This document shows, piece by piece, positions 22,126 to 22,486 of a DNA stretch of 64,000 bases. The notes under the pieces are model-generated. The model was not told where the DNA came from and did no database searches. It saw only the letters and a program-made list of their open reading frames with translations. Each line of letters starts with the position of its first letter. Position 1 is the stretch's first letter. The translations under genes were made by a program, and so were the position numbers. The stretch lies in the NCBI RefSeq assembly GCF_057098645.1, contig NZ_CM169472.1; one strand, given 5' to 3'.

Positions 22126-22486
22126 AGTTCTGTGGATAACAAATAATTAACGGTGAAAAACAGGTTGCAACAGCAACGAACGGCATCTTAATAATCAACC
22201 CAATGAATACAAACGACGAATAAATAGTATTTATTAATGATTACGATAGGGTCAGCGACTACGCAGAAGCGCCACAATGCCTTTTGTCGATTTAAGGCGA
22301 CCGGACAAGGCTTCTTCTTAATATATTCATAAATTAAATATCATTCACAATAAAAACAAAAAACTTAAACTCATTATTTAAATCAATGTTCATTTTCACA
22401 CCGATGAAAATACTATCTCATTTATCTTTTATGCCTATATAATCCACCGCATTATTGTCATTTTATTTTGGATATCCAATTTTTTC
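22126..22486. promoter_or_regulatory. AT-rich divergent intergenic region between yghO and the ligase-SDR-ACP-SPT operon
   Basis: 361 bp, very AT-rich, no ORF; upstream of both divergent transcription units. Confidence 0.4.

What the first reader, a model, noticed from the sequence alone, without database searches (positions are those of the whole stretch)
22126..22486. AT-rich divergent control region at the deletion/insertion hotspot
A 361-bp strongly AT-rich spacer separates yghO from the ligase operon. It is a likely H-NS-bound shared promoter region and corresponds to the position where K-12 (from memory) carries IS5, so the locus may be silenced under laboratory conditions.
Basis: inference. 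Interest (0 to 1): 0.35.

Follow-up and report, generated by a model that had tools for sequence, protein, structure and literature searches.

The report
Divergent promoter spacer of sphingolipid genes
This AT-rich gap is the uncharacterised control region between the two halves of E. coli's ceramide (sphingolipid) synthesis gene cluster; it is an ordinary divergent promoter spacer, but it splits into a 92-bp invariant part and a fast-evolving part, and K-12 has lost all of it.

Summary
Window 22126-22486 is non-coding, has 31.6% GC against 51.6% for the window, and lies between divergent genes. The window is E. coli O145 RM9872.

The "ligase operon" is aasR-epi-acpR-spt. With yghO (the aca N-acyltransferase) it forms the published five-gene dihydroceramide cluster. 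In this strain yghO is a pseudogene.

Conserved start codons put the spacer at 22108-22495.

The spacer has two parts:
- **Core, 22404-22495:** 92 bp next to aasR, as conserved as first and second codon positions (pi 0.012; third positions 0.08-0.10). It carries a perfect TATAAT at 22438-22443.
- **Remainder:** hypervariable (pi 0.17), with three haplotype classes.

I found no RNA family, significant fold, conserved ORF or shared motif.

The IS5 recollection is only roughly right. In K-12, IS5 abuts window 22085, 40 bp inside yghO. It replaces about 8.4 kb, including the whole spacer.

H-NS binding is plausible from composition alone. No ChIP or TSS data were found, and the nucleation motif is not enriched.

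Published BL21 lipid data suggest the chromosomal aasR/acpR genes are not effectively expressed in the laboratory.

Verdict: real, ordinary, partly reinterpreted, low to moderate interest.

The parts
22126..22486 (.). The finding as given: AT-rich non-coding spacer (31.6% GC)
22108..22495 (.). Spacer between the evolutionarily conserved start codons (yghO ATG 22107-22105; aasR ATG 22496-22498)
20983..22125 (-). yghO (aca / ceramide-synthase-type N-acyltransferase homolog). A pseudogene in this strain: W116 is replaced by a stop at 21778-21780.
   Evidence: PMC9386255 Fig. 9
22496..24217 (+). aasR, a fatty acyl-AMP ligase / specialised acyl-ACP synthetase. RefSeq starts it at 22529.
   Evidence: PMC9386255
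24214..26580 (+). Rest of the operon: epi/cerR-type SDR reductase (24214-25128), acpR (25160-25408), spt (25408-26580)
   Evidence: Spt scores 600 bits against the 500-bit cut-off of NF047599
22404..22495 (+). Invariant 92-bp core next to aasR (pi 0.012). Inferred to hold the aasR promoter, regulator sites and a leader of about 46 nt.
22415..22443 (+). Best-conserved promoter candidate: weak -35 ATCTCA (22415-22420), 17-bp spacer, perfect -10 TATAAT (22438-22443). Predicted TSS near 22450.
   Evidence: 8.6 bits; invariant in 11 alleles; prediction only
22108..22312 (.). Hypervariable yghO-proximal part (pi 0.17; three haplotype classes). The stretch 22353-22379 is equally variable.
22313..22352 (-). 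Small conserved island. Candidate yghO promoter on the minus strand: -35 GTGAAT at 22348-22343, 17-bp spacer, -10 TATATT at 22325-22320. It overlaps a plus-strand TTCACA hexamer.
   Evidence: prediction only
22086..30469 (.). Segment absent from K-12, where IS5 takes its place. It includes the first 40 bp of yghO, the whole spacer, aasR-epi-acpR-spt, lptG2, lptF2, the ytfJ-family gene, a hypothetical gene and the 3' part of yghQ.
22251..22259 (.). Site of an IS1 insertion (9-bp target duplication) in strain eco-241

Best explanation
The region is the shared, divergent promoter and leader spacer of the E. coli dihydroceramide (sphingolipid) biosynthesis cluster. yghO, an aca/bacterial-ceramide-synthase-type N-acyltransferase that is a pseudogene here, reads leftwards. 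The aasR-epi-acpR-spt operon reads rightwards.

The spacer has two parts.
- **The 92 bp next to aasR (22404-22495)** are under strong purifying selection. They most likely hold the aasR promoter: a perfect TATAAT at 22438-22443 and a poor -35, so the promoter is probably activator-dependent or weak. They would also hold its regulator sites and a leader of about 46 nt ending at ATG 22496.
- **The remaining ~270 bp** are a fast-evolving AT-rich spacer. One small conserved island (22313-22352) probably carries the yghO promoter.

Basal expression is probably low in laboratory media, because the core promoter is weak. H-NS may also occupy the AT-rich DNA.

What is shown: gene identities, composition, conservation pattern, the K-12 deletion junctions.

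What is inferred: promoter positions, activator dependence, H-NS occupancy, low expression.
For: **Gene identities.**
- RefSeq annotation.
- Pfam and NCBIfam hits, including the SPT equivalog above its cut-off and the FAAL subfamily above its cut-off.
- Literature naming ECD_02850-02854 as aca (yghO), aasR, epi, acpR and spt, with AasR, AcpR and SPT from E. coli B tested biochemically (PMC9386255).

**Arrangement.** The divergent yghO/aasR arrangement, with a 250-1000 bp spacer, recurs in most of the 53 loci (of 80 examined across Proteobacteria) that have a yghO homolog within 3 kb.

**Conservation in 11 E. coli alleles.**

| Partition | pi |
|---|---|
| Core 22404-22495 | 0.012 |
| Codon positions 1+2 | 0.011-0.014 |
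| Third codon positions | 0.08-0.10 |
| 22108-22312 | 0.17 |

The divergent SCPM-O-B-8794 lineage is 88% identical in coding sequence but differs at only 3 of 92 core positions.

**Population scale.**
- Core: 4144 of 4145 genomes are at least 95% identical to the window.
- Left part: 3011 of 4130 genomes are below 95%.

**Promoter.** The TATAAT at 22438-22443 is invariant.

**Expression.** BL21 makes no 3-oxo-sphinganine unless AasR, AcpR and SPT are all expressed from plasmids.
Against: - No transcription start site, ChIP or reporter data exist for this spacer in anything I could search.
- Promoter prediction is uninformative. The simple scan found 3 sites against 2.4 expected.
- In my position-weight scan the best site scores 10.8 bits, only the 90th percentile of 500-bp bins. 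That site (TTCACA-16-TAAACT, 22344-22371) has a -10 that is not conserved.
- The conserved TATAAT candidate scores only 8.6 bits because of its -35.
- The core could be conserved for a reason other than a promoter.
- yghO has no Shine-Dalgarno sequence in E. coli, unlike other genera. The yghO side may therefore be decaying rather than regulated.
Confidence: 0.6

Rival explanations
1. H-NS silencing is the main function. The AT-rich spacer nucleates an H-NS filament that shuts off both promoters, making the cluster cryptic until an anti-silencer acts.
For: - About 68% AT over roughly 450 bp.
- The highest density of promoter-like sites at or above 6 bits in the window: 28 against a median of 5. 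This is typical of H-NS targets.
- The hypervariable part matches the published trend that H-NS-bound upstream spacers evolve faster (PMC4720273).
- The H-NS-bound ybdO/dsbG spacer is listed in that paper at a distance of 0.134.
- BL21 shows no detectable pathway output without overexpression.
Against: - No occupancy data were found.
- The AT-rich tract is short and flanked by genes of 50-56% GC. The cluster itself is not AT-rich or obviously foreign in composition.
- The recalled nucleation motif is not enriched: 74 matches in the window against 64 expected, and only one two-mismatch match inside the spacer.
- BL21 appears to have some basal Epi and YghO activity.
- This reading does not explain why the 92 bp next to aasR are invariant.
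Confidence: 0.35
2. The conserved core is a cis-regulatory leader RNA (riboswitch or attenuator) or encodes a small leader peptide, rather than a promoter.
For: - Sequence invariance extends through the predicted 5' UTR to the start codon.
- A small palindrome followed by a T-run lies at 22468-22485.
Against: - No Rfam match at E<=1.
- Predicted folds are no better than shuffles (z -1.3 and -1.15 for the leader).
- The palindrome is perfect only in alleles carrying G at 22470.
- There is no conserved ORF in the spacer in E. coli or in 18 related loci.
- The core sequence is not conserved in other genera.
Confidence: 0.07
3. The spacer is mostly functionless DNA at a decaying locus. The cluster is being lost from E. 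coli and the variable spacer simply drifts.
For: - yghO carries an internal stop in this strain.
- aasR carries internal stops in eco-241 and EC08.
- Independent IS5 and IS1 deletions have occurred, plus an IS1 insertion in the spacer.
- O157:H7 Sakai lacks the whole segment.
- E. coli yghO has lost the Shine-Dalgarno sequence present in other genera.
- The left part is about twice as diverse as third codon positions.
Against: - The spacer and cluster are retained in about 76% of 5426 complete genomes.
- The coding flanks show strong purifying selection: pi 0.011-0.014 at positions 1+2 against 0.08-0.10 at position 3.
- The 92-bp core is as constrained as those coding positions.
- Fewer than 0.5% of spacer-bearing genomes have a disrupted spacer.
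Confidence: 0.15

Closest known systems
Caulobacter crescentus sphingolipid region (CC_1165-CC_1162 aasR-epi-acpR-spt, CC_1154 aca/bCerS, with LptF2/LptG2 and a flippase nearby)
   Same: The same five dihydroceramide genes are present. The literature says these five are clustered only in C. crescentus and E. coli BL21 (PMC9386255). E. coli also has second copies of lptF and lptG and a flippase-like yghQ next to the cluster, as Caulobacter does (PMC11324152).
   Different: In E. coli yghO sits immediately and divergently upstream of aasR, so one spacer serves both. The spacer sequence is unrelated. No sphingolipid has been reported from wild-type E. coli in the papers I read. In this strain yghO is a pseudogene.
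H-NS-bound, fast-evolving upstream spacers of E. coli such as ybdO-dsbG (Higashi et al. 2016, PMC4720273)
   Same: Both are AT-rich regions upstream of a gene with unusually high between-strain divergence next to well-conserved coding sequence.
   Different: H-NS occupancy is demonstrated for ybdO and not for this spacer. Here a 92-bp sub-region is invariant.
IS5-associated rearrangements in E. coli K-12 (the insH copy listed at yghO; PMC11677980 Table 1)
   Same: This is the same element. The paper lists an IS5 copy with yghO as its target gene in BW25113.
   Different: It is not an insertion into the spacer. IS5 is flanked by non-matching tetranucleotides and replaces 8.4 kb. The spacer is deleted, not interrupted.
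Replacement of regulatory regions between strains ('horizontal regulatory switching'; recalled from memory, Oren et al. 2014 PNAS, not checked here)
   Same: There are three sharply different spacer haplotypes (72-88% identical) between coding flanks that are 96-100% identical.
   Different: I did not test whether recombination or accelerated local divergence produced the haplotypes. No expression difference is known.

Membership tests
Divergent sigma-70 promoter spacer | Flanked by two genes transcribed away from each other, with no gene inside | tested here: met
   yghO is on the minus strand and aasR on the plus strand. No conserved ORF lies in the spacer.
Divergent sigma-70 promoter spacer | Recognisable -35/-10 elements on each strand, more than chance | tested here: inconclusive
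   The simple scan found 3 sites against 2.4 expected. The best position-weight site scores 10.8 bits, the 90th percentile of bins. Site density is the highest in the window, as expected for AT-rich DNA. A perfect, invariant TATAAT sits at 22438-22443 but with a 3/6 match at -35.
Divergent sigma-70 promoter spacer | Mapped transcription start sites | not testable with these tools
   No TSS data for a locus-bearing strain were found.
H-NS-bound / xenogeneically silenced region | AT content well above the genome average | tested here: met
   31.6% GC against 51.6%; lowest 1.3% of 361-bp windows.
H-NS-bound / xenogeneically silenced region | Extended AT-rich tract that can support a filament (long tracts are the ones linked to silencing; from general knowledge) | tested here: inconclusive
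   The low-GC tract spans only about 450 bp (roughly 21990-22560). The flanking genes have 50-56% GC.
H-NS-bound / xenogeneically silenced region | High-affinity nucleation motif (TCGATAAATT-like; recalled from memory) | tested here: not met
   There is one two-mismatch match in the spacer. The window total is 74 against 64 expected.
H-NS-bound / xenogeneically silenced region | ChIP occupancy and derepression in an hns mutant | not testable with these tools
   K-12 lacks the spacer. The SE11/SE15 ChAP-seq study and the RfaH/H-NS-StpA ChIP-seq study in pathogenic E. coli exist, but no usable table covers this locus.
Rhodobacteria-type dihydroceramide gene cluster (aasR, epi, acpR, spt, aca) | Serine palmitoyltransferase of the proteobacterial type | tested here: met
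   NCBIfam NF047599 equivalog, 600 bits against a 500-bit cut-off.
Rhodobacteria-type dihydroceramide gene cluster (aasR, epi, acpR, spt, aca) | Specialised ACP directly upstream of spt, plus an adenylate-forming AasR and an SDR reductase | tested here: met
   PP-binding, AMP-binding / FAAL subfamily NF006624 (872 against 600) and Epimerase family hits, in operon order. The E. coli B proteins were tested biochemically in PMC9386255.
Rhodobacteria-type dihydroceramide gene cluster (aasR, epi, acpR, spt, aca) | aca/bCerS-type N-acyltransferase (YghO) present and intact | tested here: not met
   The homolog is present. It is adjacent in 53 of 80 loci across Proteobacteria and is named as aca in PMC9386255. 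In this strain, however, it has an in-frame stop at 21778-21780. YghO has no Pfam or NCBIfam model hit.
Cis-regulatory RNA (riboswitch / attenuator) | Match to a known RNA family, or a fold better than shuffled sequence | tested here: not met
   Rfam gives no hit at E<=1. Fold z-scores range from -0.05 to -1.3.
IS5 insertion site of K-12 | The IS5 junction lies inside the region | tested here: not met
   The left junction is at window 22085/22086, inside yghO. The right junction is near 30470, in yghQ.

The most novel reading that the evidence does not exclude
The invariant 92-bp module is the docking platform for an unidentified, E. coli-specific activator that switches on sphingolipid (ceramide) synthesis under host or envelope-stress conditions. 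The three sharply different haplotypes of the yghO-proximal spacer are regulatory-region replacements that set ceramide-synthase expression differently in different E. coli lineages. On this reading E. coli would be a conditional sphingolipid producer with lineage-specific wiring.
Probability: 0.15. Interest if true: 0.55.

Novelty: new member of a known kind. Interest (0 to 1): 0.25.

Why it matters
About three quarters of complete E. coli genomes carry a full set of ceramide-synthesis genes that K-12 and O157:H7 lack, so textbook E. coli lipid biology does not cover them. Whether and when natural E. coli make sphingolipids is open, and this spacer is where that decision would be made.

The practical gains here are modest:
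- a defined 92-bp target for reporter and pull-down experiments;
- corrected start codons for aasR and yghO;
- exact K-12 deletion junctions;
- a warning that this particular strain cannot make ceramide through YghO.

As a sequence feature the region is an ordinary AT-rich divergent promoter spacer.

Tried and rejected
- **Rfam scan** of 21500-23000 at E<=1 found nothing.
- **RNA folding** of the predicted aasR leader and the yghO leader gave z-scores of -0.05 to -1.3, which is not significant.
- **Terminator-like hairpin** GTTGC-N4-GCAAC plus a T-run at 22164-22177 (minus strand). It is partly deleted in three alleles, so I do not treat it as functional.
- **Inverted repeat** ATTTTCA-N6-TGAAAAT at 22393-22412 as an operator. 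It is not conserved; many alleles read AATATCAC.
- **Small ORFs** in the spacer (21-42 aa). None is conserved across genera.
- **Phylogenetic footprinting** across 18 enterobacterial and Pseudomonas loci. The spacer sequence is not conserved between genera, apart from the aasR N-terminal extension. An 18-nt motif shared by genera with longer spacers is absent from E. coli.
- **Shared 12-mers** with other AT-rich spacers of the window (yghS/yghT, pitB/gss, glcD/glcC) as a sign of co-regulation. None exceeded chance.
- **H-NS nucleation motif.** Not enriched.
- **O157:H7 Sakai data.** The strain lacks the locus altogether.
- **Literature and supplements** searched for yghO and ECD_0285x expression, TSS or H-NS data: an RfaH/H-NS-StpA ChIP-seq study in pathogenic E. 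coli, SE11/SE15 ChAP-seq, the BL21 transcriptome, and yghQ/R/S/T searches. Nothing usable turned up.
- **The +75-bp insertion in strain EC08.** It lies between glcC and yghO, not in this spacer.

Full report
**Identity of the window and check of the observation**

The 2.1 kb around the finding are 100% identical to the chromosome of E. coli O145 str. RM9872. RefSeq annotates yghO on the minus strand (window 20983-22125, flagged "internal stop"). On the plus strand it annotates a fatty acyl-AMP ligase, an NAD-dependent epimerase/dehydratase-family protein, an acyl carrier protein and serine palmitoyltransferase.

The stated interval 22126-22486 runs from the annotated yghO ATG to the first possible start (GTG) of the ligase ORF.
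- It has 31.6% GC against 51.6% for the window.
- Only 1.3% of 361-bp windows are as AT-rich.
- The aasR-side half has 25.9% GC.
- Of the 23 annotated spacers of at least 80 bp, it is the third most AT-rich. It is the longest of the eight divergent ones.

**What the flanking genes are**

The "ligase operon" is the aasR-epi-acpR-spt operon. Padilla-Gomez et al. 2022 (PMC9386255) name the BL21(DE3) genes ECD_02851-02854 as aasR, epi, acpR and spt. They name yghO (ECD_02850) as the aca N-acyltransferase. They state that the five dihydroceramide genes are clustered only in Caulobacter crescentus and E. coli BL21.

My own scans agree.
- Spt matches the NCBIfam serine palmitoyltransferase equivalog above its cut-off (600 against 500 bits).
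- AasR matches a fatty acyl-AMP ligase subfamily above its cut-off (872 against 600).
- The other two proteins have PP-binding and Epimerase domains.
- YghO has no Pfam or NCBIfam model. A YghO homolog nevertheless lies within 3 kb of aasR in 53 of 80 loci recovered from species across the Proteobacteria and beyond. In nearly all of these it is divergent, with a spacer of 250-1000 bp.

In this strain YghO is broken: tryptophan 116 is replaced by a stop at 21778-21780.

**Boundaries**

The aasR boundary:
- RefSeq starts aasR at ATG 22529 in this strain.
- The 11 codons upstream (MSNKIFTHSLP) align with a conserved MSETSSxHSLP in a dozen genera.
- The residue aligned with the "M" of 22529 is I or L in Rosenbergiella and Erwinia endophytica.
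- The NCBIfam profile aligns from residue 6 of the longer protein.
- PGAP itself uses the ATG equivalent to 22496 in four other strains.

The yghO boundary:
- All other genera start YghO at the ATG equivalent to 22107-22105, preceded by an AAGG Shine-Dalgarno sequence.
- E. coli has an extra upstream ATG (22125) and no Shine-Dalgarno sequence.

The evidence-based spacer is therefore 22108-22495 (388 bp).

**Internal anatomy**

I aligned 11 E. coli alleles chosen across the identity range. Diversity by partition:

| Partition | pi |
|---|---|
| 22108-22312 | 0.17 |
| 22313-22352 (island) | 0.086 |
| 22353-22379 | 0.25 |
| 22380-22495 | 0.035 |
| 22404-22495 (core) | 0.012 |
| Flanking genes, third codon positions | 0.08-0.10 |
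| Flanking genes, first and second positions | 0.011-0.014 |

The 92 bp next to aasR are thus as constrained as amino-acid-determining positions. The rest evolves about twice as fast as the synonymous-site proxy.

The divergent lineage SCPM-O-B-8794 is 88% identical in coding sequence and about 70% at third positions, yet differs at only 3 of the 92 core positions.

The same contrast holds at population scale.
- 4144 of 4145 genomes are at least 95% identical to the core.
- 3011 of 4130 are below 95% for 22108-22312.

The variable part falls into three haplotype classes, 72-88% identical to one another, between coding flanks that are 96-100% identical. The rarest class is closer to the outgroup than to the other E. 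coli classes.

**Promoters**

Prediction is weak.
- The consensus scan finds no more sites than chance: 3 against 2.4.
- In my position-weight scan the best site scores 10.8 bits, only the 90th percentile of 500-bp bins.
- The spacer does have the highest density of sites at or above 6 bits in the window (28; median 5). This is what AT-rich DNA gives.

Conservation is more informative.
- The perfect TATAAT at 22438-22443 and its surroundings are invariant. The -35 is poor (ATCTCA). The predicted start is near 22450, leaving a leader of about 46 nt.
- The higher-scoring TTCACA-16-TAAACT (22344-22371) has a -10 that is not conserved.
- On the yghO strand, GTGAAT-17-TATATT (22348-22320) lies in the small conserved island.

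All of these are hypotheses only.

**What it is not**
- There is no Rfam family and no fold better than shuffles.
- No conserved small ORF is present.
- Spacer sequence is not conserved between genera.
- No motif is shared with other AT-rich spacers in the window.
- Two small inverted repeats are not conserved.

**IS5 and the hotspot claim**

In a K-12 genome, homology to the window stops at 22085, after TTAA and 40 bp inside yghO. The IS5 terminus follows. Homology resumes at about 30470 (CTAA in K-12, CTGA here), inside yghQ.

K-12 therefore lacks about 8.4 kb. The missing segment includes the whole spacer, the four-gene operon, second copies of lptG and lptF, a YtfJ-family gene, a hypothetical gene and the 3' end of yghQ. 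The unequal flanks show a deletion, not a simple insertion. A paper on IS5 lists this copy with yghO as its target (PMC11677980).

Other events at the locus:
- Strain RM14721 has an IS1-bounded deletion of 21289-31857.
- Strain eco-241 has IS1 inside the spacer at 22251-22259.
- O157:H7 Sakai lacks the entire pheV-pitB segment, where SpLE3 sits.

Even so, the spacer is present in about 4130-4170 of 5426 complete genomes, and a disrupted spacer is rare.

**H-NS and silencing**

I found no occupancy or hns-mutant data for a strain with the locus. Composition and promoter-like site density fit an H-NS target. Higashi et al. report that H-NS-bound spacers upstream of genes evolve faster (median diversity 0.013 against 0.005). 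That matches the hypervariable part.

Against this, the tract is short, the genes are not AT-rich, and the recalled nucleation motif is not enriched.

Indirect expression evidence comes from BL21(DE3). With empty vectors, or with SPT alone, it forms no 3-oxo-sphinganine. When that intermediate is made from plasmids, sphinganine- and ceramide-like lipids appear, "possibly by intrinsic enzymes" ECD_02852 and ECD_02850 (PMC9386255). This suggests low, not zero, chromosomal expression in laboratory culture.

**Verdict**

The feature is real, and the gene context was read correctly. The functional reading (a divergent control region, possibly H-NS-bound, poorly expressed in the laboratory) is reasonable but unproven. 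The IS5 statement is only approximately right.

The new information:
- the identity of the cluster;
- the corrected boundaries;
- the split between a constrained core and a hypervariable remainder;
- the exact K-12 junctions.

This is an ordinary kind of element at an interesting, already published locus.

Noticed in passing
window 21778-21780 (yghO) and 16178-17399 (glcF): yghO carries an in-frame stop (W116stop) in this strain, and glcF is frameshifted. Strain RM9872 therefore lacks an intact ceramide-synthase-type acyltransferase even though the aasR-spt operon is intact.
   Followed up: partly
window 22496-22528: The RefSeq start of the fatty acyl-AMP ligase (22529) is probably 11 codons too short. 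ATG 22496 is supported by cross-genus conservation, an NCBIfam alignment and PGAP calls in other strains.
   Followed up: yes
window 22105-22125: The conserved YghO start is the second ATG (22107-22105). Other genera have an AAGG Shine-Dalgarno sequence there and E. coli has none, which hints at poor translation of yghO in E. coli.
   Followed up: partly
window 22131-22139 (minus strand): A perfect DnaA-box 9-mer, TTATCCACA, lies just upstream of the annotated yghO ATG. It is polymorphic (A to G in three of 11 alleles), so it is probably a chance match.
   Followed up: partly
window 22468-22479: The 12-bp perfect palindrome TTGGATATCCAA followed by T6 is perfect only in alleles with G at 22470. 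Seven of the 11 alleles have T there.
   Followed up: partly
window 26615-31537 (minus strand): Second copies of lptG and lptF, a YtfJ-family gene, a 274-aa protein with no Pfam or NCBIfam hit (29364-30188) and the flippase-like yghQ sit next to the ceramide genes. This mirrors the LptF2/LptG2 and flippase genes in the Caulobacter sphingolipid region and suggests a dedicated export route. Most of this is deleted in K-12.
   Followed up: partly
L008, L009, L011, L012, L014-L016, L019, L022, L034 (spacers upstream of aasR): Genera with longer yghO-aasR spacers (Hafnia, Pluralibacter, Serratia, Mangrovibacter, Tatumella, Erwinia, Cedecea, Shimwellia) share an 18-nt motif, AGCATTTAGTGGTAAAAA, on the yghO strand. 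It contains an extended -10-like TGGTAAAAA. It is absent from E. coli, Pseudocitrobacter and Citrobacter youngae.
   Followed up: partly
L087/L088 (E. coli O157:H7 Sakai, NC_002695.2 3852167-3875617): O157:H7 Sakai has the SpLE3 element between pheV and a truncated pitB. It lacks the glc genes, yghO, the spacer and the whole ceramide cluster.
   Followed up: yes
L091 (RM14721) and L089 (eco-241): There are independent IS1 events at the locus: a 10.6-kb IS1-bounded deletion (window 21289-31857), and an IS1 insertion in the spacer with a 9-bp duplication. aasR also has internal stops in eco-241 and EC08.
   Followed up: yes
window 22108-22379 versus L003, L004, L007, L092: The yghO-proximal spacer has three haplotype classes (72-88% identical) between near-identical coding flanks. 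The rarest class resembles the allele of a divergent Escherichia lineage (SCPM-O-B-8794).
   Followed up: partly
window 1-11537: The left end of the window holds several IS3 copies, a contact-dependent-inhibition immunity gene and a Flp/Tad-type pilus gene set. A 1380-bp AT-rich (32% GC) gap with no annotated gene lies at 10158-11537, upstream of glcA.
   Followed up: no
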